Assembly: GCA_963807165.1 (NCBI GenBank)
Contig: CAWDZM010000001.1
Span: forward strand, 198,306 to 262,305
DNA length: 64,000 bases
Source of the DNA: an uncultured bacterium
Lineage (GTDB): Bacteria; Patescibacteriota; Minisyncoccia; UBA6257; 2-01-FULL-56-20
Direction of reading: 5' to 3'
Every line of letters starts with the position of its first letter. Within the stretch, counting starts at the first letter, position 1. Below, piece after piece: positions 37,635-54,534 of this stretch. A program made the translations under genes and the position numbers. Under the pieces are notes generated by a model that had not been told where the DNA came from, did not search any database, and saw nothing but the letters and a program-made list of their open reading frames with translations.

Positions 37635-38075
37635 TTATAAAAACTTTTCTATCACCAATTGTTTTATTTCTTCCGGCTTGAGATCAATATCTTTTAATCT
37701 TGAAAGGGGAATCTTTACCGGGTCGTGCGTACCGTCAACCGCGTACGGAGTGTTTGGCTGATATTCCGGACCATCACCGGCGCCAAACGTACCACCGACC
37801 TCCTTGCACAGATAAAAATCATGCACCACTTCTTCTTTGCTATCATGGCCTTCGTGATGATATTCCGCGAAGCGCTCTCCGACGCTGACTTCCACTCCCA
37901 ACTCTTCTTTCATTTCGCGATGCAATGCCTGCAAAATTGTTTCTCCTTTTTCCACACCACCGCCGGGGAAAATATAATATGTCCGATCTCCTTTGACCCG
38001 TTCGATGAGCGCAATCTTACCATCTTCAATAATAATTCCTCGAACACGTTTATTCATAGCGCTCAAAGTATACAC
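37635..38075 (-). CDS. NUDIX hydrolase
   Basis: Nudix box GGGVEKGETILQALHREMKEELG. Confidence 0.8.
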   Translation of the reverse strand: MYTLSAMNKRVRGIIIEDGKIALIERVKGDRTYYIFPGGGVEKGETILQALHREMKEELGVEVSVGERFAEYHHEGHDSKEEVVHDFYLCKEVGGTFGAGDGPEYQPNTPYAVDGTHDPVKIPLSRLKDIDLKPEEIKQLVIEKFL

Positions 38076-38084
38076 GATTTTTAT

Positions 38085-38756
38085 TTATTGATACACCGTC
38101 CCCAAATAATTCATTGGGTCCACATCGCGCCCTTGCGGATAGGGACCACAGCCGTGCGCGGGCGCCATGCTGAAACCCGCGGCTTCAAAGATAGAAAAAT
38201 GGAGGTGGGTGCCGGTCTCGTCACCACTATCACCGACGGTGCCAATGAGTTGATCCTTCATAATACTCTCGCCGGGCTGAACATCGATGTCGGCCAAGTG
38301 CGCGAATAAAAGATCGAGATGATTCGTATTGTCCTCGAGCACGATGAATCGTCCGAATGCGAGACGCGGGCAATAATCATCCTGATCGCCGGTGGCAAGG
38401 ACCGTCGCAACGGCAGGCGAGTAGATCGGCGCGCCATAGACGGCAGCGATGTCGATGCCGTTATGCCAGTCGCCGATATACATGTATGAGTACGGTGTGC
38501 GGCCGTAGCCTTGAGTGATGGCACCATATCCTTTGCCACCTTTGGCGAATAGATCGAAATTGATGGTGGTCAGGCCGTTCGCAGCGCCGCCGCCGCTTCC
38601 ACCCGGACCAAAATATGCCCCGGACAGGGGAGTCATGCTCGGCATCAACGACGAAAGCGTTCCCGAGTCCAATGCGTGTGCGGCCGTCGCCACAATATCG
38701 TAGCCGATCGCAACCACAAAGATGACGAGAAAAATAAATCCAATTTGTTTTAACAT
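38085..38756 (-). CDS. M23 family metallopeptidase (LytM-like)
   Basis: HxxxD ... HLHF motifs. N-terminal TM. Confidence 0.8.
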   Translation of the reverse strand: MLKQIGFIFLVIFVVAIGYDIVATAAHALDSGTLSSLMPSMTPLSGAYFGPGGSGGGAANGLTTINFDLFAKGGKGYGAITQGYGRTPYSYMYIGDWHNGIDIAAVYGAPIYSPAVATVLATGDQDDYCPRLAFGRFIVLEDNTNHLDLLFAHLADIDVQPGESIMKDQLIGTVGDSGDETGTHLHFSIFEAAGFSMAPAHGCGPYPQGRDVDPMNYLGTVYQ

Positions 38757-38895
38757 CTATGGTATTGTGCCTGAACTGAAGGCGATATGGAATAGCGAGG
38801 GAATAGAGCCCTTTTCAAGACTTCATCTGTCGCCCAATATACCTTTTACGTCAGATATATAGCTTAAACCAGCTTATATGGCTTTTTATCTATTT

Positions 38896-39393
38896 TTAAT
38901 GAAACAATCCCAGCAACCAGTTCACCGCCTGCTGTGCCAGTCCAAGTGCCCATGAAAATAAATTTAATAGCGCAACAAGAATTCCATTGAGTTGAATGCC
39001 GGTCACGCTATAGAACCAATTATCGAACTGACCGATCCACTGGCTCAAAATATTTTGCACGCTGGTCTCGAGCACCGGCGTCATGTTGACGGTCGGCCAT
39101 GTGGCACCCGGCATGCCATTCGTGTTAACCGTTGTATTATTGTTCAGCTTAAGGCTGTTAATGAACCCGGTGAAGGGCGAAATAAGATTCTGGAACGAGT
39201 TACCGATATTATAATTGCCGCCACTAAGATCCGTAGAGCCGGCCGTGATGCCGCCGCCCGAGCCAGTCGATCCGACAGCATACGCGCGCGCCTGCGGTGC
39301 GGCAAAGATGCCGCCGAACGCACCCAAGAAAAGAAAAACAGCAATCAGACCAACGATCGCTGTCTCAAAGAACATCACGCGGTTCTTTTGCAT
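38896..39393 (-). CDS. Hypothetical membrane protein with hydrophobic segments at both the N- and C-terminus
   Basis: 165 aa. Topology only. Confidence 0.35.
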   Translation of the reverse strand: MQKNRVMFFETAIVGLIAVFLFLGAFGGIFAAPQARAYAVGSTGSGGGITAGSTDLSGGNYNIGNSFQNLISPFTGFINSLKLNNNTTVNTNGMPGATWPTVNMTPVLETSVQNILSQWIGQFDNWFYSVTGIQLNGILVALLNLFSWALGLAQQAVNWLLGLFH

Positions 39394-39416: not shown

Positions 39417-40930
<1,514 letters not shown>

Positions 40931-41004
40931 TTAGCACGAAAACGGGGGCGAGGCTAGGGGGGCAACAATTAGTGTTTCAAAATAGCCGCCTGTATAATGT
41001 AGCT

Positions 41005-41610
41005 ATGGGAAACACAGAACCGACAAAATCAGTCGAATCAGAAAAACACAATTTGGCCTTTGTCGATGCACAAAACATGCATTTTGGCACAACCAAGTGT
41101 TATGAATGCATCGCTAAATTAAGGTTGGAAAACCCAGATCTTAAAATCGAAAATGTTAAACTTTCCGATTGTTCTTGCGGAAAAGCATGGGAAGTTAACC
41201 TCGCTAAGTTCAGAATTTATTTGAAAGAAAATTATAACGTTTCTGAAGCCTACTATTTTCTTGGCAATCTCCAAGATAAAAATGAGGAGCTTTATAAAGA
41301 TATACAAAAAGCCGGATTCATTTTAGTTTTTAAAGAACACACGAGCCTAGCCAAGTCGAAAAAGAAAGGAAATGTTGACACTGATTTAGTTTTCGAAGTT
41401 ATGAAAAATATGGTTGATAACTCAGAGTTCAACCAAGTTGTTATTGTTTCTGGAGATGGCGACTACAAAAAATTAGTTAATTACCTGATTTCTAAAGATA
41501 AATTTAGAAAGATTCTCTTCCCAAACAAGAAATTTGCATCGTCTCTATACAAAGAATTCGGCGGAGAAAGGTTCGACTATCTTGAAAATATACGGACTTA
41601 TATAGCCTAA
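41005..41610 (+). CDS. NYN-domain (LabA-like) putative ribonuclease with an inserted 4-Cys segment. It sits inside the AT-rich island.
   Basis: Motifs LAFVDAQN... and VVIVSGDGDY. Start moved to the internal Met because the upstream part is the GC-rich gltX leader. Confidence 0.6.
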   Translation: MGNTEPTKSVESEKHNLAFVDAQNMHFGTTKCYECIAKLRLENPDLKIENVKLSDCSCGKAWEVNLAKFRIYLKENYNVSEAYYFLGNLQDKNEELYKDIQKAGFILVFKEHTSLAKSKKKGNVDTDLVFEVMKNMVDNSEFNQVVIVSGDGDYKKLVNYLISKDKFRKILFPNKKFASSLYKEFGGERFDYLENIRTYIA

Positions 41611-41816
41611 AAATGAAAAAGGCCCCTAGGGCACTTACACCTTTCGGGTCCTCTCTCGTATTGATACTTGTATACTACACCCAGTTTATCCAAAAGTCAA
41701 CACGGGGGGTAAATAACCCACATAGATTCTACACTTTCGCACCTCTCGAAGCGTCCTCAATGTTCCAAATTCCCCCATTTTGGCACGAAATGGTGCAAGA
41801 ACTTGAGTGAAAATTA

Positions 41817-42785
41817 CTATAGTCTTCCAGAAATTTCAAATCGATTGAGAATATATTGACGGTTGTCAAAAATTTCTACATGCCCATAATCAGCGTTAGC
41901 CTGGATACGAAAATTATTGAGTTCGAGAGCTCTTTTTACAACATACATCCCAATACCTAGCCCATCTATGCCTTTGGCATGCTTACCCCTAAATCGCAAG
42001 TTGAAAATCTTAGTAAGCTCCTCTGGCTCAATTCTTAAGCTTATCATGCCTATTGTTAATTTAAATTCCCCTCCTTCGATTTCAAAATAAAATCGTATAT
42101 CTGAATTAGGCTTTACATACTTAAACGCATTATCAAGAAAATTATAAAAAGCTGTGTTAATTGTTTTATAATCTAATTTTATTTTATTTGCCTCCGCCAT
42201 CGAGTCAGCGAACCAAAAACTCGGTTTAACCCACGTTTTATTTGATTGATCTTCGAATGCATGAAGTACTTTAATTATAATATCGCGAATATTATGTGGT
42301 CGGATATCAAGCTGAATCTCCTCGCCCATATTGATAATTTCAAAGCTTGCCATATGAGCATCGATTTCTACTATTCTCTGTTGTAGATTAATCAAAATAT
42401 CCGCGACCCCTTTGGTATCAGCTTTTATGTCAGCGATCACTATTTCCCTTTGTTCTTGAAAATCCTTATTCGCGAACTTGCGATAATCTACGATCCCTTC
42501 TATTTTCTGTTTTAATTGTCCTTGTAATTTTATTAGACTGTGAGAATGTTCTTTTATTTGATCAATAAAACCATCCTCGATTGAAAAAATGATCGGGCTA
42601 CTAACCTCGACCACTTTCCGTAATATTTTTGATCGCTTTACAAGTTCAAGATCGTCGGTGATAAACTCAATCACCCCGTCGCCTATCTGAAATTCTCTAA
42701 TGGCATAACCAGATTCATTAAAATTATCTGGTATATTCGTGGAGACAACTTCTCCGTCTGAAGTTTTTCTCCGATAGAAAGTCAT
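41817..42785 (-). CDS. Cytoplasmic histidine-kinase-like ATPase (GHKL HATPase_c) with an uncharacterised N-terminal domain. AT-rich island.
   Basis: N-box LDNAFKYV, G1-box GIDGLGIGM, and a possible H-box EIDAHMASF. No TM segments. Confidence 0.55.
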   Translation of the reverse strand: MTFYRRKTSDGEVVSTNIPDNFNESGYAIREFQIGDGVIEFITDDLELVKRSKILRKVVEVSSPIIFSIEDGFIDQIKEHSHSLIKLQGQLKQKIEGIVDYRKFANKDFQEQREIVIADIKADTKGVADILINLQQRIVEIDAHMASFEIINMGEEIQLDIRPHNIRDIIIKVLHAFEDQSNKTWVKPSFWFADSMAEANKIKLDYKTINTAFYNFLDNAFKYVKPNSDIRFYFEIEGGEFKLTIGMISLRIEPEELTKIFNLRFRGKHAKGIDGLGIGMYVVKRALELNNFRIQANADYGHVEIFDNRQYILNRFEISGRL

Positions 42786-43240
42786 TTAATTTTACTCAGC
42801 TCCGATTCAATCATAGAAATAAATTCTGACGTTTCGGAATTTTTTGACATTTGATTATCAGCCACTCGCATATCCACGCTCAATTTAAATCGCCCATATG
42901 CAGAATATAGAATCACTCTTTTCTTATCGCGATACGCATTCTTAATTGCCCGAATTACACTTATACCCTGCTCTTTTTCTGATAATTTATCACCGACTCC
43001 TTTATAGTCGACGAAAATAATATCTGCTCTTTTTATATTTTCGTCTTGGATATTAATAATGTCATTTATTTTCCTTACTGCCCACCCCGCTTTTTGTAAA
43101 TTTTCAACAACCGGGCACTCGGAATCATCAATGAAAAGAATGTTCGCTGAAATTTTATCCAATTTCTTTTTGCGCCGAAACGGCCACCAAAAATTGGGCT
43201 TGAAATCTATGTCTACGTTGACTACGTTAAAATCGCCCAT
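42782..43240 (-). CDS. Stand-alone receiver (REC)-like domain protein. Its stop overlaps the kinase start (ATGA). AT-rich island.
   Basis: ILFIDD (acidic pair), IIFVDY (phospho-acceptor Asp), ILYSA (Thr/Ser). ~30-aa N-terminal extension. Confidence 0.5.
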   Translation of the reverse strand: MGDFNVVNVDIDFKPNFWWPFRRKKKLDKISANILFIDDSECPVVENLQKAGWAVRKINDIINIQDENIKRADIIFVDYKGVGDKLSEKEQGISVIRAIKNAYRDKKRVILYSAYGRFKLSVDMRVADNQMSKNSETSEFISMIESELSKIK

Positions 43241-44463
43241 ATTTCCTTTGAAAACTTCCCTTTCGACCCCTTAACAGAACTATCTAATAAAATTTGATTT
43301 TTAGCAAGCCCCTCCCCTACCTCGCACTGATCCGCATCAGCTCGTCCGCGATCTTGTCCGCGGCGCCGGGGATAAAGAATGCCGAACGACGCGGCGCTCA
43401 TCTTGGCGCGCAGGTCGGCGTCCCCCAGGATCTGCTTGAGCTGGGTAAAGAAGATGCCGGGCAAAAGGTTTGCCTCTTCGATGACGATCGCGGCGCCGGA
43501 CTTGGCGAACTCGTAGGCGTCCACGCGCTGGTGGTCGTTCGCGGATTCGGTGAGCGGGATCAGGATGGCGGGAAGACCAAATGACGCGAACTCGCAGACG
43601 GAGCTGCCAGAACGCGCAACGACGAGATCCGCGGCGGTAAGTGCGGTCGCCATATCATTGCCACCTTCCGGCGTGCCGCCAAAGTAGCCAACGGCGACGT
43701 AGCGGAACGTGATCGGCGCGTTCGCGAGCGCGACTTTGGCCAATTGTTGCACCTCTGCAAAATTGTCTGGGCCGGTCTGATGCAAAACCGACGTCATGGA
43801 AATAAATTGGGTGATATTCGCAAGCACGAATTCATTGATACGTTTTGCACCTTGCGAACCGCCAACGATAAGCACAAGCGGCTGAGTCTTATCAAAACCC
43901 ATAATTTCTTTTGCTGCTTCTTTTGATATTCGCTCGCCGAGCAACTCTGTGCGCAACGGCGCGCCCGTGATCATCACTTTATCGGCGGCGAAGAACGCCG
44001 CTGCGCGATCAAAACTCAAGAACACGCGCGTGGCAAAACGGCCGGAGGTGACGTTGGTGAGCCCGGGCTGGGCATCGGAATCGTGGATTGCGATGGGAAT
44101 GCGATAAAACCACGCGGCGAGAACGACGGGCAAGGCTCCGGTACCGCCCTTCGAGAAAACGACATCGGGCATCATAAAATAGAGTTTCCATAACGCTTGG
44201 AAGAATCCGATCACGAACTTTGGCGCATCGAGAAAATTATCGATCGAAAAATAGCGGCGCATCTTTCCCGACGCGATCGGATAGATCGGAATGCCGCGCT
44301 GTGCGAGGAGCGCCGCGTATGGATCGTTCGGACCAAAATAGGCAAACTCCACCGGCGCATGGAGCGCGTCGCACTTTGCCTGCAATGATTCGGCCACCGC
44401 GAGCAATGGATAAATATGTCCCCCACTCCCACCGCCGGTAAACGCCACTCTGAATTTTTCCAT
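43222..44463 (-). CDS. murG: Undecaprenyldiphospho-muramoylpentapeptide beta-N-acetylglucosaminyltransferase MurG, with a ~50-aa C-terminal extension running into the AT-rich island.
   Basis: FTGGGSGGHIYP motif. ftsW-murG gene order. Confidence 0.85.
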   Translation of the reverse strand: MEKFRVAFTGGGSGGHIYPLLAVAESLQAKCDALHAPVEFAYFGPNDPYAALLAQRGIPIYPIASGKMRRYFSIDNFLDAPKFVIGFFQALWKLYFMMPDVVFSKGGTGALPVVLAAWFYRIPIAIHDSDAQPGLTNVTSGRFATRVFLSFDRAAAFFAADKVMITGAPLRTELLGERISKEAAKEIMGFDKTQPLVLIVGGSQGAKRINEFVLANITQFISMTSVLHQTGPDNFAEVQQLAKVALANAPITFRYVAVGYFGGTPEGGNDMATALTAADLVVARSGSSVCEFASFGLPAILIPLTESANDHQRVDAYEFAKSGAAIVIEEANLLPGIFFTQLKQILGDADLRAKMSAASFGILYPRRRGQDRGRADADQCEVGEGLAKNQILLDSSVKGSKGKFSKEIWAILT

Positions 44464-44467
44464 TTTT

Positions 44468-45577
44468 TTAATTATACCGTGTAACGTTCAATGCCACACC
44501 ACTCATCGTGATGAACACCGCGAGCGCCGTACCGCCATAGCTGACGAACGGCAATGGCACACCAGTGAGTGGAATGATGCCGGAGATCGAAGCCATGTTG
44601 ACGAATGCTTGAAGCGCAATAACGGTGCCAAAACCGAACAGAATCATGCGTCCAAACTGATCGCCCGTCTTGCGCGCAAGCCAGAACATGCGGAAGGTAA
44701 CGATCCCAAAGAGCGCCACAAGCGCGCCGGCGCCGACGAAGCCAAGCTCTTCCGCCACGACCGCAAAGATCGAATCATCGATCGGCGTCGGCAGATAACT
44801 GTCCTTCGTTGCTGACTGGCCGTAGCCCACACCGAACAAACCGCCCGACCCAATTGCAATGAGCGACTGGTTGACCTGATAGTTTTGCCCCTGCAAATTT
44901 TGTGTCGGATGCAAAAATCCGGTGATGCGCGCCATGCGGTACGGCGTGATGAAGATAAGAAGCACGACCGCCGCAACCGCGACGCCGATAATGCCAGCGA
45001 TATATTTTATCGGAGCGCCGCTCAAAAAATAAACGATAAGCCCCGAACCGAGTAAGATCGCGACCGTACTCGTCGCCGGTTGAAGCACGAGCAAGATCGC
45101 CATGACACCGGAAATGATCGCAAACGGCAAAAGCCCTGTTTGAAAATCCGTGCTCCGTTTTTTTGAATTCGAAAGCCACGCTGCAAGATATAAAAGATAG
45201 GTGAACTTCATCAGCTCCGCAGGCTGAAAACTAAGCGGTCCAAAGCGCAACCATCGAGTGGAACCGCTTGCGGCGGTGCCGAGCGGCGTAAACACCAACA
45301 CGAGCGCGACCATGCTGATGAGCAAAAGAATGAATGCAACATCTTTAAATTTATAATAGGGAACGAAATAGCCAATCAGAAATCCAACGATACCAACCCC
45401 GAGCCCGAATGCTAATTGATGCTCAAGATAATAATAACTGTTGTTAAATAACTGCTTTCCAAGATCGGAAGATGCGGACGAAAGCATGGCAAGCCCGAAC
45501 ACGAGCAGAATGCACAGCGCCGCCAATAAAAAATAATCAGGATTGCCAGCGCTGGTTCGTCGTAGATTCTTTGCCAT
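44468..45577 (-). CDS. ftsW: Peptidoglycan glycosyltransferase FtsW/RodA (SEDS family)
   Basis: Ten-helix SEDS topology and conserved motifs. Upstream of murG. Confidence 0.85.
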   Translation of the reverse strand: MAKNLRRTSAGNPDYFLLAALCILLVFGLAMLSSASSDLGKQLFNNSYYYLEHQLAFGLGVGIVGFLIGYFVPYYKFKDVAFILLLISMVALVLVFTPLGTAASGSTRWLRFGPLSFQPAELMKFTYLLYLAAWLSNSKKRSTDFQTGLLPFAIISGVMAILLVLQPATSTVAILLGSGLIVYFLSGAPIKYIAGIIGVAVAAVVLLIFITPYRMARITGFLHPTQNLQGQNYQVNQSLIAIGSGGLFGVGYGQSATKDSYLPTPIDDSIFAVVAEELGFVGAGALVALFGIVTFRMFWLARKTGDQFGRMILFGFGTVIALQAFVNMASISGIIPLTGVPLPFVSYGGTALAVFITMSGVALNVTRYN

Positions 45578-52158: not shown

Positions 52159-53454
52159 CTATTCCTCGATAATAGGAAGCGATGCCGGCGGACTGCCACG
52201 GCGCGACTCCACTTTTTCGAGCTCGGTCGTTGACACCACCGCCAATGGGAAATGGAAAATGGTCGCCAGCTCCTCTATATTAAGGATTGATTCGTGATGT
52301 GCTGGAGAAAAATGCCGATACGCCTCATAGATATGATGTTTGCGTGCCCGAATACGGGTCTGTTTGAATAATGGCCCCTTCACCGAATACGATGCAGTGT
52401 TGGTCGGGCTGTCCGGCTTCAGCGAATTTAAATTCTGCGTATTGAATTGACGGATAAATCCATGAATGGAATTCGTATGGCCTGCGTTTGTGGATTCTTC
52501 CTTTTTCTCCAGATAAATAAACCGAAGTGTCGCCTCAAACGCGATCTTGGATATTTTGAGATGGATCGCATCCGCGCGCTCTTTATCCACCGGCGTCATC
52601 AAGAAGCGGGGCAATTTTTCCTGCTTTGCATCCTTACTCGACTTCGCTTCGCCGGGATGCTCAAATGGCCCGCGGATGATCTCACTCGGAGTAAGGCCCA
52701 AATCGAACTTTGGCCACAGACTCTGCTTTTTCGGCTCCTCGATACCAAGTAATTTTTTAATTTCCTTCTCGCCTTCGGTGCGAAATGCCTCACCAGTCGG
52801 CTTGATCACCACCTGAAACCATAGTTGTTCATTATCTTTTAACTTCGACATCGCCTCCATGAGCGGGGCAATCGTATCGATACGGTGCTCTTCCACCGCT
52901 TCTTCGAACATTGGGTAGGTACGGATCGGCAGATAATTTTCATGCCGCAACACTTCCTCCAGTCCGGAAATGTCGAAGGTCTCATTGGGGAAGGTATGTG
53001 GCAGTTCTTCCAAATAATCTTCCGCTTCCGTGATCTCGGCTTCCGGATACGCCGCGTAGATCGCCGACTCCATCATATTCCGATATTGCGTCGGCACGCG
53101 AAGATAAAAATGCGTCTCGCCGGCGCGGGCGACAAGCTCGAACACCATCCAGTATTCATCCTGCCCTTGTACATATTTCTTAAATGGCGGGATACCATAG
53201 GTATACGGCGCGTGCGCAGCAGCAAAAATCTGCTCCATTGCTTTTGGAGTTTTAAGAATTGTCTTTGGAACTTTGATCTCGAGCAACTTCCACTTAATAC
53301 CGGTGACCCATTTATAATGGAGGTGTAAAAGCCAAGATTCCCATAAAATGATGATGGCGATGATCGGCAATGCGATCCACCACACCAACCCCCACACAAC
53401 GAGGATGCTTTGAATAATGCCGGATAAAATAGTGCCCATATATACTATTATCAA
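52159..53454 (-). CDS. Membrane protein (N-terminal TM hairpin plus a ~380-aa cytoplasmic domain) immediately upstream of the VirD4-like ATPase. Possible partner.
   Basis: Start/stop juxtaposition with the ATPase on the same strand. Confidence 0.4.
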   Translation of the reverse strand: MIIVYMGTILSGIIQSILVVWGLVWWIALPIIAIIILWESWLLHLHYKWVTGIKWKLLEIKVPKTILKTPKAMEQIFAAAHAPYTYGIPPFKKYVQGQDEYWMVFELVARAGETHFYLRVPTQYRNMMESAIYAAYPEAEITEAEDYLEELPHTFPNETFDISGLEEVLRHENYLPIRTYPMFEEAVEEHRIDTIAPLMEAMSKLKDNEQLWFQVVIKPTGEAFRTEGEKEIKKLLGIEEPKKQSLWPKFDLGLTPSEIIRGPFEHPGEAKSSKDAKQEKLPRFLMTPVDKERADAIHLKISKIAFEATLRFIYLEKKEESTNAGHTNSIHGFIRQFNTQNLNSLKPDSPTNTASYSVKGPLFKQTRIRARKHHIYEAYRHFSPAHHESILNIEELATIFHFPLAVVSTTELEKVESRRGSPPASLPIIEE

Positions 53455-53502
53455 CTTTTAGAGATCAAAGTGCAAAAAATGCGGAACCGCTGGGAAATCG
53501 AC

Positions 53503-54534
53503 TTAGGATTCCCGAACGCGATATTTTCCGTCGTTCATGCGCTCGAAGAAATTCCGATTCTGAAGATTGATGAGGATTGTGTTCTGCTTAAAGAAGCGCT
53601 GGGCGTTGACATGGGTGACAACATCGGTCGGTTTGAGTGGACCCTTCATCTTCAAGACCTTGGCGATGACCTCGCGCGCAGTACCGGCTTCGTATCCATT
53701 CTCTTTAAGTCCGTACATACCGCGACCAACGAGCACAAAGCGCGGGTCTTTGATGAGCTCGTTATGTACGGTCGGCGCAAGTGCCTTCTGATCGTCAAAT
53801 CCGACTTTATTAATGTGCGTCGCAATGTCCTCAAAGTGCAACGGTTCGTTTTTCTTTTTGAGTACCAGATAGATCTTGTCGCGCACGGTTGCCGGATTGA
53901 TCTCCGCCCATTCGTTCAAGCCCATATCGCCGTATGGATTCTTGTCGATCTGCTTCGAGATGCTCAGATAGTTTTCGGCGATCTCCTGCGCAACGGACTT
54001 TGTTTTGACAAAGCTCGCGAGCTGAATCTGATATGAATCAGTGAACACTTTTTCCTTGTGGCTCTTTAGGAAACCAACCCAACCGTTAACGAACGTGCTC
54101 GCAGTTTTGAGGTCTTTGTCCGTAACATAATAGAACGGGTGGAATGCATCATCTTCGCGATGAAGATTGAATACGCCCGAGGCCTCGGCGAGAAAATCGA
54201 GATGGTTCTCGCGGACGCCGCTCGTGAGCGTCGTCGTATAGCGAACCACATCTGCCTTGCTCAACACGCCGCCCCGCGCGGAAATGAATTTCTTTACCTT
54301 ATCCAAAATGACGCCCGCTTCCGGATTCTTTGAAATATTGGCTTTGACGAGCACAATCGCGCCATTTTCGATCTGACGTACGCGCTCACGGGTCACGCCT
54401 AAACGATCGCCGATCGCAGCGAGTGTTTCGCCGTCCGTCTTGCCGTCCAAACCAAACCGAGCCGTAATAACCTCCTTTTGGCGAGGATTAAGGCCGTTAA
54501 GCGATGTAGTGATGAGTTTTGTGATGGATGCCAT
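53503..54534 (-). CDS. DNA-binding protein with an N-terminal sigma-70 region-4-like HTH and two HARE-HTH-like modules
   Basis: Region-4-like LGVTRERVRQIE. Repeated LVLKKKNEPLHFEDIATHI / AKVLKMKGPLKPTDVVTHV patterns. Confidence 0.45.
   Translation of the reverse strand: MASITKLITTSLNGLNPRQKEVITARFGLDGKTDGETLAAIGDRLGVTRERVRQIENGAIVLVKANISKNPEAGVILDKVKKFISARGGVLSKADVVRYTTTLTSGVRENHLDFLAEASGVFNLHREDDAFHPFYYVTDKDLKTASTFVNGWVGFLKSHKEKVFTDSYQIQLASFVKTKSVAQEIAENYLSISKQIDKNPYGDMGLNEWAEINPATVRDKIYLVLKKKNEPLHFEDIATHINKVGFDDQKALAPTVHNELIKDPRFVLVGRGMYGLKENGYEAGTAREVIAKVLKMKGPLKPTDVVTHVNAQRFFKQNTILINLQNRNFFERMNDGKYRVRES

What the first reader, a model, noticed from the sequence alone, without database searches (positions are those of the whole stretch)
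40956..43300. AT-rich island between gltX and murG carrying a NYN nuclease and a receiver plus histidine-kinase-like ATPase pair
The island is roughly 2.3 kb and visibly AT-rich, about one-third G+C by eye against the ~55-60% background. It holds a NYN/LabA-like putative RNase (41005..41610, plus strand) convergent with a two-gene operon on the minus strand. That operon is a stand-alone REC-like protein (42782..43240) whose stop overlaps the start of a cytoplasmic GHKL histidine-kinase-type ATPase (41817..42785) with an unknown N-terminal domain. MurG's reading frame runs ~50 codons past its usual C-terminus into the island, as if an insertion replaced its native stop. Other signs that it was acquired are the composition, the position between two essential genes, and the flanking repeats (next finding). 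The arrangement of kinase-like ATPase, bare receiver and nuclease recalls phosphorelay-based anti-phage modules such as Detocs, but it does not match any described system. It could be a new signalling/defence cassette.
Basis: partly seen in the sequence, partly recalled or inferred. Interest (0 to 1): 0.75.

Follow-up and report, generated by a model that had tools for sequence, protein, structure and literature searches.

The report
Mobile kinase-like/receiver pair plus separate nuclease
The AT-rich insert between murG and gltX holds a mobile two-gene histidine-kinase-like/receiver cassette already catalogued as the untested phage-defence candidate PDC-M43, next to an apparently unrelated NYN nuclease gene, and the "extended" MurG comes from one extra base.

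Summary
The AT-rich island is real: 40920-43316, 36% G+C against about 51% in the flanks, the lowest value in the window. It carries the three genes at the stated coordinates.

The two minus-strand genes match PADLOC's PDC-M43A (5.5e-30) and PDC-M43B (2.8e-39). PDC-M43 is an untested candidate found by embedding in restriction/BREX loci.

- **A** is a true receiver domain by fold, with an invariant Asp-Asp/Asp78/Ser113/Lys133 site. A conserved aromatic-basic N-terminal extension precedes it; in 16 of 95 relatives this extension is a transmembrane helix.
- **B** is histidine-kinase-like. His82, the N box and the G2 box are invariant. Its G1 box (DxGxG) is Met-x-Ser in nearly all family members, so canonical ATP binding is doubtful.
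- **Pairing:** A is directly followed by B in every locus long enough to show it. The pair is always more AT-rich than its flanks. It often sits between hsdS and hsdR or beside other restriction genes.
- **NYN:** it is not a conserved partner. It is convergent, is bracketed on its own by a 28-nt duplication of the gltX 5' end, and is absent from the closest relative of the pair.
- **MurG:** the extension is a 1-nt insertion. The native C-terminus and stop (43317-43319) are intact.

Verdict: a new member of a known candidate family, with unknown mechanism.

The parts
40920..43316 (.). AT-rich inserted DNA between the gltX start codon (40917-40919, minus strand) and the native murG stop codon (43317-43319, minus strand)
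   Evidence: G+C about 0.36 against about 0.51 in the flanks; lowest 2.3-kb window in the 64 kb. In another Patescibacteria-type contig (L004) murG and gltX are directly adjacent.
42782..43240 (-). Gene A (152 aa): PDC-M43A family, a stand-alone receiver domain with a 32-residue N-terminal extension
   Evidence: PADLOC PDC-M43A 5.5e-30. AlphaFold2 with a 95-sequence alignment gives pLDDT 84 and a (beta-alpha)5 fold. The listed top 50 Foldseek PDB hits are almost all response-regulator receiver domains, TM 0.7-0.79 normalised to the target. D39, D78 and K133 are invariant; D38 and S113 are >=90% conserved in 95 sequences.
43145..43240 (-). N-terminal extension of A (residues 1-32: MGDFNVVNVDIDFKPNFWWPFRRKKKLDKISA), aromatic-basic, low model confidence
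   Evidence: An extension of at least 28 residues is present in all 95 family members. It is a predicted transmembrane helix in 16 of 95. An aromatic-basic motif occurs in 77 of 95, and the median net charge of the last 18 residues is +4. It aligns with the WW..RK segment that follows the TM helix of the E. coli plasmid homologue.
43007..43009 (-). Codon of Asp78 of A, the predicted phospho-acceptor at the end of beta-3
   Evidence: Invariant in 95 sequences. Its position after strand 74-77 is seen in the model. Codon checked.
41817..42785 (-). Gene B (322 aa): PDC-M43B family. About 70 N-terminal residues of beta-rich domain of unknown type, a helical hairpin carrying His82, and an HATPase_c-type domain
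   Evidence: PADLOC PDC-M43B 2.8e-39. Pfam HATPase_c 2.2e-8. NCBIfam and PDB hits are all sensor histidine kinases, over the catalytic domain only. The family has 318 representatives at E<=1e-30 among 1.84 billion proteins.
42540..42542 (-). Codon of His82 of B, the predicted phospho-histidine of the H box (HSHSL; family consensus H-N-L-x-S/T)
   Evidence: 100% conserved in 41 locus sequences and in 134 representatives.
42039..42047 (-). Met247-Ile-Ser249 of B, occupying the place of the G1 box Asp-x-Gly of histidine kinases
   Evidence: HMMER alignments to SrrB (6paj) and YycG (3sl2) place 'tMkSlrI' against 'kDtGtGI' and 'kDeGiGI'. M247 is present in 132 of 134 representatives and S249 in 134 of 134.
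41005..41610 (+). NYN/LabA-like nuclease gene (201 aa), convergent with A-B. Probably a separate acquisition
   Evidence: Pfam NYN 3e-13. PDB 2qip (VPA0982) E=0.0013. Acidic residues D21, D125, D127, D151 and D153 are present. No PADLOC hit at E<=1.
40914..40941 (+). Repeat copy 1. It overlaps the gltX start codon, its AGGGGA ribosome-binding site and a TAAAAT box (read on the minus strand)
   Evidence: Sequence read.
41763..41790 (+). Repeat copy 2 (25 of 28 identical), in the NYN-B intergenic region. The ATG is changed to TTG here; in L011 an ATG followed by a 3-codon ORF remains
   Evidence: Zero matches in 100 shuffles.
43317..43319 (-). Native murG stop codon (TAG), reached when the extra base near 43384 is removed

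Best explanation
The insert is a small defence-island-type patch made of two independent units.

Unit 1 is the translationally coupled operon A-B, a member of the PADLOC candidate family PDC-M43. It is a horizontally mobile two-gene phosphorelay-like cassette.
- B is a soluble, histidine-kinase-like protein: a small N-terminal beta domain, a helical hairpin with invariant His82, and an ATPase-like domain with invariant N and G2 boxes but Met-x-Ser instead of the G1 box Asp-x-Gly.
- A is a single receiver domain with a complete phospho-acceptor site (Asp38/39, Asp78, Ser113, Lys133).
- A carries its only possible output as a short aromatic-basic N-terminal extension, which is a transmembrane helix in part of the family.

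Proposed working (inferred, not shown): a phosphoryl group passes between His82 of B and Asp78 of A. An infection cue sensed by B changes the phosphorylation state of A. A then acts through its N-terminal segment, at the membrane or on a partner protein, to stop growth or otherwise limit a phage.

Unit 2 is the convergent NYN nuclease gene. It is bracketed by a 28-nt duplication of the gltX 5' end. It is a separate acquisition and not the effector of the pair.

The MurG 'extension' is a one-base error or very recent mutation.
For: Shown:
- PDC-M43A/B HMM hits.
- A is a receiver domain by fold and by conserved residues.
- B's histidine-kinase-type matches and its conserved His, N box and G2 box.
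- A is immediately followed by B on the same strand in every retrieved locus long enough to show it, 43 loci including redundant copies.
- The pair has lower G+C than its flanks in every locus with enough flank to compare.
- The pair sits in hsdM-hsdS-A-B-hsdR-ygjP operons (L018, L024, L049, L020, L021). It also sits beside DpnI, HNH, GmrSD/HNH with an EcoRI-type methylase, a MutH-like gene with Dcm, an AbiEii-like ATPase, recombinases and integrases. It occurs between IS3 and Tn3 on an E. coli IncF plasmid.
- The N-terminal extension of A is universal, and is a TM helix in 16 of 95.
- NYN separateness: it is convergent, bracketed by the D2 repeat, absent next to the 70%-identical pair in L002, and unrelated to the other adjacent NYN. 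That other NYN is itself a single-gene candidate, HEC-09.
- The frameshift.
Against: - No member of PDC-M43 has been tested. No paper in the library mentions it by name, so the antiviral role rests on gene neighbourhood only.
- B lacks the G1 Asp that all GHKL ATPases use to bind adenine (established knowledge). It has Asn, not Glu/Asp, after the His in 105 of 134 members. ATP-driven autophosphorylation is therefore doubtful and the direction of phosphoryl flow is unknown.
- The window's A has no true TM helix (highest 19-residue hydrophobicity 0.65) and its N-terminus is modelled with low confidence.
- Nuclease genes lie next to the pair more often than a random gene would. A loose functional link to neighbouring nucleases is not excluded.
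- No integrase or other mobility gene lies in the island.
Confidence: 0.6

Rival explanations
1. One reading: a three-gene system in which the kinase-like protein phosphorylates the bare receiver, which then switches on the NYN RNase as the killing effector (a Detocs-like logic with the effector in trans).
For: - NYN has all the expected acidic residues.
- It travels with the pair in contigs 89-96% identical to the window (L011, L012).
- A second lineage (L009) has a NYN gene directly downstream of B on the same strand.
- Several other loci have some nuclease gene next to the pair.
Against: - The two NYN proteins are not detectably related (E=2.2).
- The L009 NYN belongs to the stand-alone candidate HEC-09.
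- The closest relative of the pair (70% identity, L002) has an HNH gene instead. Type I R-M-embedded pairs have no extra nuclease.
- In the window NYN is convergent, a separate transcription unit, and is bracketed on its own by the 28-nt repeat.
- The adjacent DpnI, MutH-like/Dcm, GmrSD and HsdR genes are parts of self-contained restriction systems.
Confidence: 0.1
2. The pair is a regulatory or safety module for neighbouring restriction or nuclease genes rather than a defence system in itself. For example, it could gate HsdR or other nucleases post-translationally.
For: - The position between hsdS and hsdR is stable across loci whose HsdR proteins are only 68-70% identical.
- Nuclease or restriction genes are frequent direct neighbours.
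- A has no recognisable effector domain.
Against: - The pair also occurs with no restriction gene nearby: L037 beside lepA/murJ, L045 beside redoxin/UvrD, and the E. coli plasmid between transposons.
- A has no DNA-binding domain.
- The neighbours are too diverse for one specific protein-protein interface.
Confidence: 0.15
3. The pair is a selfish addiction or toxin-antitoxin-like cassette, or an ordinary signalling pair with no role in immunity. In that case its presence in defence islands reflects only that such islands collect mobile DNA.
For: - Low G+C everywhere.
- Association with transposons, integrases and recombinases.
- Decaying copies exist: B is split in L036 and A is truncated in L035.
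- No experimental support for defence.
Against: - Embedding inside operons of restriction systems is the signal that gave seven active systems out of nine tested in the study that defined the PDC candidates, although those tests were on Hachiman-embedded (HEC) candidates, not PDC ones.
- No relatives were found in phage or viral contigs.
- Strong conservation of the phospho-site residues argues for a working relay.
Confidence: 0.15

Closest known systems
PDC-M43 (PADLOC-DB v2 'phage defence candidate', multi-gene no. 43; Payne et al. 2024 preprint, cassette CAS_00151 FAM_00604>>FAM_02649)
   Same: Both proteins match its HMMs (A 5.5e-30, B 2.8e-39). The gene order A then B, same strand, overlapping, is the same. 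Relatives sit embedded in type I R-M operons, which is how the candidate was defined.
   Different: - The window's A is the short form: its match starts at profile position 73 of 203, so it lacks the long or TM N-terminus of the reference family.
- The host is a small-genome uncultured bacterium, probably Patescibacteria.
- The pair here is not embedded in a restriction system but lies between murG and gltX.
- PDC-M43 itself has no tested function.
Detocs (DtcA sensor kinase, DtcB buffer receiver, DtcC receiver-effector; Rousset et al. 2023, bioRxiv 10.1101/2023.01.24.525353)
   Same: It is a two-component-type phosphorelay proposed or used for phage defence. It includes a stand-alone receiver protein. 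A minority of Detocs effectors are transmembrane.
   Different: - Detocs is defined by three genes.
- Its kinase is large with TPR repeats.
- Its effector is a receiver fused C-terminally to PNP, a nuclease or a TM domain.
- Here there are two genes, a 322-aa kinase-like protein without TPRs and with a degenerate G1 box, and a receiver whose only addition is N-terminal.
- No PADLOC model other than PDC-M43 matched at E<=1.
Classical HisKA/HATPase_c histidine kinase with a single-domain response regulator (e.g. HK853-RR468, Spo0F, CheY)
   Same: The receiver fold and the five signature residues are shared. So are a helical hairpin with a conserved His, N box Asn-x-x-Lys-Tyr, G2 box Gly-x-Gly-x-Gly, and operon coupling.
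   Different: - No Pfam HisKA or Response_reg hit.
- G1 box Asp-x-Gly-x-Gly is replaced by Met-x-Ser in nearly all family members (132 of 134).
- The residue after the His is Asn/Ser/Thr, not Glu/Asp.
- There is no membrane sensor domain.
- The pair is mobile, AT-rich and associated with defence islands.
HEC-09 and LabA-like stand-alone NYN nucleases
   Same: The window's NYN protein has the NYN fold signature and acidic site. It sits in a defence-type patch like HEC-09, which also lies next to a PDC-M43 pair in L009.
   Different: The window's NYN does not match the HEC-09 or NYN models of PADLOC at E<=1. It has a Cys-rich insert (CYEC...CSCG) between the first strand and the core. HEC-09 gave no protection when tested.

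Membership tests
PDC-M43 (PADLOC candidate) | A protein matching a PDC-M43A profile | tested here: met
   PDLC04646 5.5e-30, residues 25-146 against profile positions 73-196 of 203.
PDC-M43 (PADLOC candidate) | A protein matching a PDC-M43B profile | tested here: met
   PDLC04647 2.8e-39, residues 33-319 against profile positions 52-340 of 347.
PDC-M43 (PADLOC candidate) | The two genes adjacent, in the order A then B | tested here: met
   4-nt ATGA overlap, same strand. Same order in all related loci.
PDC-M43 (PADLOC candidate) | Anti-phage activity | not testable with these tools
   The family is listed as untested. No paper names it.
Two-component system (histidine kinase plus response regulator) | Receiver fold with acidic pair, phospho-acceptor Asp, Thr/Ser and Lys | tested here: met
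   Model pLDDT 84. The listed top 50 PDB fold hits are almost all receiver domains. D38/D39, D78, S113 and K133 are conserved.
Two-component system (histidine kinase plus response regulator) | Dimerisation/phosphotransfer helix with conserved His (HisKA-type H box) | tested here: inconclusive
   His82 is 100% conserved and lies in a predicted helix. There is no HisKA Pfam hit and no acidic residue after the His.
Two-component system (histidine kinase plus response regulator) | Catalytic domain with N, G1 and G2 boxes for ATP binding | tested here: not met
   N box (N219, K222, Y223) and G2 box (G275, G277, G279) are invariant. G1 Asp-x-Gly-x-Gly is Met-x-Ser-x-Arg/Lys.
Detocs | Three genes: kinase, buffer receiver, receiver-effector | tested here: not met
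   Only two relay genes are present. NYN has no receiver domain. Definition taken.
Detocs | Receiver fused to a C-terminal effector domain (PNP, nuclease or TM hydrolase) | tested here: not met
   A ends with helix 5 of the receiver at residue 152.
Detocs | Match to DtcA/B/C profiles | tested here: inconclusive
   No PADLOC model other than PDC-M43 matched at E<=1. I did not verify that Detocs profiles are in this library version.
NYN nuclease (Pfam PF01936) | Profile match above the gathering score and a conserved acidic active site | tested here: met
   51 bits against a cutoff of 24.2. D21, D125/D127 and D151/D153 are present.

The most novel reading that the evidence does not exclude
PDC-M43 may be a self-contained immune relay of a new logic.
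- The kinase-like partner has lost canonical ATP binding: Met-x-Ser replaces the G1 box in nearly every family member (132 of 134).
- It would therefore act as a regulated phosphatase, as a phosphotransfer partner, or as a sensor of a non-ATP ligand.
- The receiver would be charged from small phosphodonors.
- The receiver would itself be the effector, through its membrane-seeking N-terminal segment, causing abortive infection when the partner is disturbed by a phage.
Probability: 0.12. Interest if true: 0.75.

Novelty: new member of a known kind. Interest (0 to 1): 0.42.

Why it matters
Only Detocs is so far a shown case of a two-component relay used directly as a phage-defence system. PDC-M43 is a second, much smaller, two-gene relay with no recognisable effector domain and an apparently ATP-blind kinase domain.

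It is spread from tiny-genome uncultured bacteria to Bacteroidota and to an E. coli conjugative plasmid. If it protects against phages, it would show how a bare receiver can be an immune effector.

The E. coli plasmid copy (NZ_CP148569.1) makes the question directly testable.

For this window in particular, the work removes two false leads: the 'fused' MurG and the three-gene system.

Tried and rejected
- **Structure of B.** Single-sequence AlphaFold2 of B gave pLDDT 47 and is unusable beyond secondary structure.
- **RNA and tRNA.** Rfam found nothing in 40500-43600 at E<=1. No tRNA lies near the island.
- **Promoters and terminators.** Promoter-like sites were about twice the shuffled expectation (14 found against 6.9, sd 2.7) but are weak consensus matches typical of AT-rich DNA; terminator-like sites were at the expected level.
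- **Island-wide repeats.** No repeat flanks the whole island; only D2 flanks NYN.
- **Viral and phage sources.** Viral contigs and GenBank phages hold no relatives of A, B or NYN.
- **Plasmids.** Plasmids hold no NYN relative.
- **Literature.** 'PDC-M43' appears in no paper. Searches for kinase/receiver defence systems gave only Detocs and unrelated items.
- **Organism name.** Cluster look-ups returned no names, only a 726,381-bp source contig.
- **ORF 41613-41810 (65 aa).** It has no family hit and was treated as non-coding.


Full report
**1. The observation**

The island exists. G+C is 0.359 over 40956-43300 and about 0.363 over 40920-43316, against 0.517 and 0.512 in the 10-kb flanks. It is the lowest 2.3-kb window of the 64 kb, where the mean is 0.501 and the sd 0.025.

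The three ORFs are at the stated coordinates, and A's stop overlaps B's start as ATGA. Pfam gives NYN for 41005-41610 (3e-13) and HATPase_c for B (2.2e-8). It gives nothing above noise for A.

**2. MurG**

A second reading frame of the murG 3' end reads ...FFIPGAADKIADELMRISAR followed by a stop.

I aligned the window with a 99.76%-identical metagenome contig (L001) and with two contigs 89-96% identical to the window (L011, L013). The window carries one extra base near 43384 (GCGTCGTT[C]GGC on the minus strand). All three other contigs lack it. Removing it gives a 381-aa MurG that ends at the TAG at 43317-43319.

So nothing replaced the native stop.

gltX (39417-40919, minus strand) is broken into four frame segments by three frameshifts in the window. 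The first is again an extra base relative to L011. The source is a 726-kb contig. Indel errors of a long-read assembly are the simplest explanation, but pseudogenes are not excluded.

**3. Repeats**

The only repeat beyond chance is 28 nt, at 40914-40941 and 41763-41790. It is 25 of 28 identical and had no match in 100 shuffles.

Read on the minus strand, copy 1 is TTTCGTGCTAAAATAGGGGAATATGGAA. That is a -10-like box, the ribosome-binding site and the first two codons of gltX. Copy 2 lies between B and NYN.

The repeat therefore brackets only the NYN gene and about 150 bp of non-coding DNA. This looks like a target duplication or an attachment-site pair of a separate insertion at the gltX 5' end. 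Both copies are kept in L011 and L012. No repeat brackets the whole island, and there is no integrase in it.

**4. What A and B are**

Against PADLOC-DB, B matches PDC-M43B (2.8e-39) and A matches PDC-M43A (5.5e-30). NYN matches nothing.

PDC systems are 145 untested 'phage defence candidates' that Payne et al. derived from genes embedded in BREX, DISARM and type I R-M loci. PDC-M43 is their cassette CAS_00151. No paper in the library mentions PDC-M43 by name.

**5. Protein A**

A profile search found 143 relatives. In an alignment of 95 of them, F36, D39, F76, D78, G92, K107 and K133 are invariant. D38 and S113 are at least 90% conserved.

AlphaFold2 with this alignment gives pLDDT 84 and a beta1-alpha1...beta5-alpha5 fold. 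D38/D39 follow beta1, D78 follows beta3, S113 ends beta4 and K133 follows beta5. The listed top 50 Foldseek matches in the PDB are almost all response-regulator receiver domains, including several BeF3-activated ones. The profile also weakly hits the YycF and other receiver sequences. A is therefore a genuine receiver domain with an intact phosphorylation site.

It has no output domain. What it does have, in all 95 members, is an N-terminal extension of at least 28 residues.
- 16 of 95 carry one or two predicted transmembrane helices.
- 77 of 95 have an aromatic-basic motif just before the receiver. The median net charge of the last 18 residues is +4.
- The window's FWWPFRRKKK aligns with the AWWTTRK that follows the TM helix of the E. 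coli plasmid homologue.

**6. Protein B**

NCBIfam and PDB sequence hits are all sensor histidine kinases and cover the catalytic domain. The full-library profile search finds 318 cluster representatives at E<=1e-30. Nearly all are 320-370 aa and match end to end, so this is a compact family of its own.

In 134 full-length representatives, His82, Asn219, Lys222, Tyr223, Ser249, Gly275, Gly277 and Gly279 are 100% conserved. Met247 is present in 132 of 134.

Alignments to SrrB and YycG, anchored by the following I-F...F-R motif, place Met247-x-Ser249-x-Arg251 where kinases have the G1 box Asp-x-Gly-x-Gly. In GHKL ATPases that Asp binds the adenine amino group, and its loss abolishes ATP binding (established knowledge, not tested here).

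The residue after His82 is Asn in 105 of 134 and acidic in only 3. The residue at +4 is Ser or Thr in 106 of 134.

B thus keeps a phospho-histidine site and part of a nucleotide pocket, but it is not a canonical ATP-dependent autokinase. The first 70 or so residues are beta-rich in a poor single-sequence model and remain unassigned. B has no hydrophobic segment.

**7. Context in other genomes**

I retrieved 50 related loci. A is immediately followed by B, on the same strand, in every locus long enough to show it. The pair has lower G+C (0.24-0.39) than its flanks in every locus with enough flank to compare.

The neighbours differ:

| Neighbourhood | Loci |
|---|---|
| hsdM-hsdS-A-B-hsdR-ygjP | L018, L024, L049, and partly L020, L021 |
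| hsdS downstream | L022, L029, L032 |
| DpnI | L004, L014 |
| HNH | L002 |
| EcoRI-type methylase, T5orf172, GmrSD/HNH upstream | L047, L038, L040 |
| MutH-like plus Dcm | L026 |
| AbiEii-like ATPase | L030 |
| BglII | L007 |
| Serine recombinases or integrases | L004, L033, L038, L045 |
| Housekeeping genes | L037 |

An E. coli IncF conjugative plasmid carries a pair between IS3 and Tn3 (A 7.6e-43, B 1.9e-67). This pair has the same Met-x-Ser, and its A has a TM helix.

No relative was found in viral contigs or phage genomes.

This is the pattern of an autonomous mobile cassette that lives in defence islands.

**8. NYN**

The protein has the NYN profile and the acidic residues D21, D125, D127, D151 and D153. 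It resembles the LabA-like protein VPA0982.

It accompanies the pair in contigs 89-96% identical to the window. The closest distinct relative of the pair (70% identity, L002) has an HNH gene instead.

One other lineage (L009) has a NYN gene after B. That protein is unrelated to the window's (BLASTP E=2.2). It belongs to HEC-09, a stand-alone NYN candidate that gave no protection when tested.

Adding the convergent orientation and the private 28-nt repeat, NYN is best read as a separate resident of the same patch.

**9. Mechanism**

Shown: a receiver with an intact acceptor site, a partner with an invariant His in a helical hairpin, strict pairing, translational coupling, and mobility.

Inferred:
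- Phosphoryl exchange occurs between His82 and Asp78.
- B senses a cue through its N-terminal domain or its altered nucleotide pocket.
- Output goes through A's N-terminal segment, at the membrane or on a partner.
- The role is antiviral.

The direction of flow is open because of the missing G1 Asp. B could act as kinase or as phosphatase, with A charged from acetyl phosphate in the latter case.

I rate the classification at about 0.85-0.9, an antiviral role at about 0.5, and the specific output model at about 0.2-0.3.

**10. Comparison and novelty**

The pair passes the three testable criteria of PDC-M43. It fails the defining features of Detocs, which needs three genes and a receiver-effector fusion. 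It fails one defining feature of classical kinases, the G1 box.

It is therefore a new member, in a probably Patescibacteria-type genome, of a known but untested candidate family. The taxon is inferred from the source names of its relatives and the 726-kb contig.

The family-wide Met-x-Ser substitution and the universal N-terminal extension of the receiver appear in no paper found here. They are the most interesting leads.

Noticed in passing
window 39417-40919 (minus strand): gltX is split over four frame segments by three frameshifts. The first, near 40819, is an extra base relative to L011 and L012. Together with the murG extra base this suggests indel errors in the source assembly (a 726-kb contig), or pseudogenisation of an essential gene.
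   Followed up: partly
window 40914-40941 and 41763-41790: The 28-nt repeat is the gltX -10-like box, ribosome-binding site and start codon. The second copy has TTG instead of ATG; in L011 it keeps an ATG followed by a 3-codon ORF. It looks like the scar of a site-specific insertion of the NYN cassette into the gltX 5' end.
   Followed up: partly
window 40990-41007 and 40917-40935: Both NYN (TGTATAAT, then 7 nt, then ATG) and gltX (TGCTAAAAT, then 8 nt, then ATG) have an extended -10-like box so close to the start codon that the mRNAs would be leaderless or nearly so.
   Followed up: no
B family (window 42039-42047; representatives P0146-P0289): The G1 box Asp-x-Gly-x-Gly of histidine kinases is Met-x-Ser in 132 of 134 family representatives, while His82, the N box and the G2 box are invariant. 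No current explanation accounts for a conserved His next to an apparently adenine-blind pocket.
   Followed up: partly
L051 (E. coli plasmid NZ_CP148569.1, record 52495-54157): An IncF conjugative plasmid carries a PDC-M43 pair (A with a TM helix) between IS3 and Tn3, next to DUF3800 and pentapeptide-repeat genes. G+C is 33% against 45.5% in the flanks. It is absent from 5,426 complete E. coli genomes by megablast. It offers a ready experimental model.
   Followed up: partly
L009:1632-2213: The NYN gene just downstream of a PDC-M43 pair matches PADLOC HEC-09 (2e-19), a single-gene NYN candidate. A PIF1-type helicase lies upstream in the overlapping contig L016.
   Followed up: partly
L036:4797-5762 and L035:668-1787: These are decaying copies of the pair. 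B is split into two ORFs in L036. In L035 A is reduced to 57 aa and B is shortened.
   Followed up: no
window 43222-45577; L004:12795-15408; L047:8631-12555: In three separate lineages the pair lies close to cell-division/cell-wall genes. In the window it is between murG and gltX. In L004 it is about 4 kb beyond an adjacent murG-gltX pair, with an integrase between. In L047 it is just upstream of scpAB, an S11 peptidase, mraY and ftsW. This may be chance in very small genomes, or a preferred integration region.
   Followed up: no
window 41031-41190 (NYN residues about 31-60): The NYN protein has a Cys-rich insert (CYEC...CSCG) with weak similarity to the LysW zinc ribbon (Pfam E=0.044). The LabA-like structure 2qip has no counterpart in the aligned region.
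   Followed up: no
window 37800-38100 and 38700-39000: There are two further short dips in G+C (0.43 and 0.39) to the left of gltX, around an M23-peptidase-like gene and a small hydrophobic protein. They were not examined.
   Followed up: no
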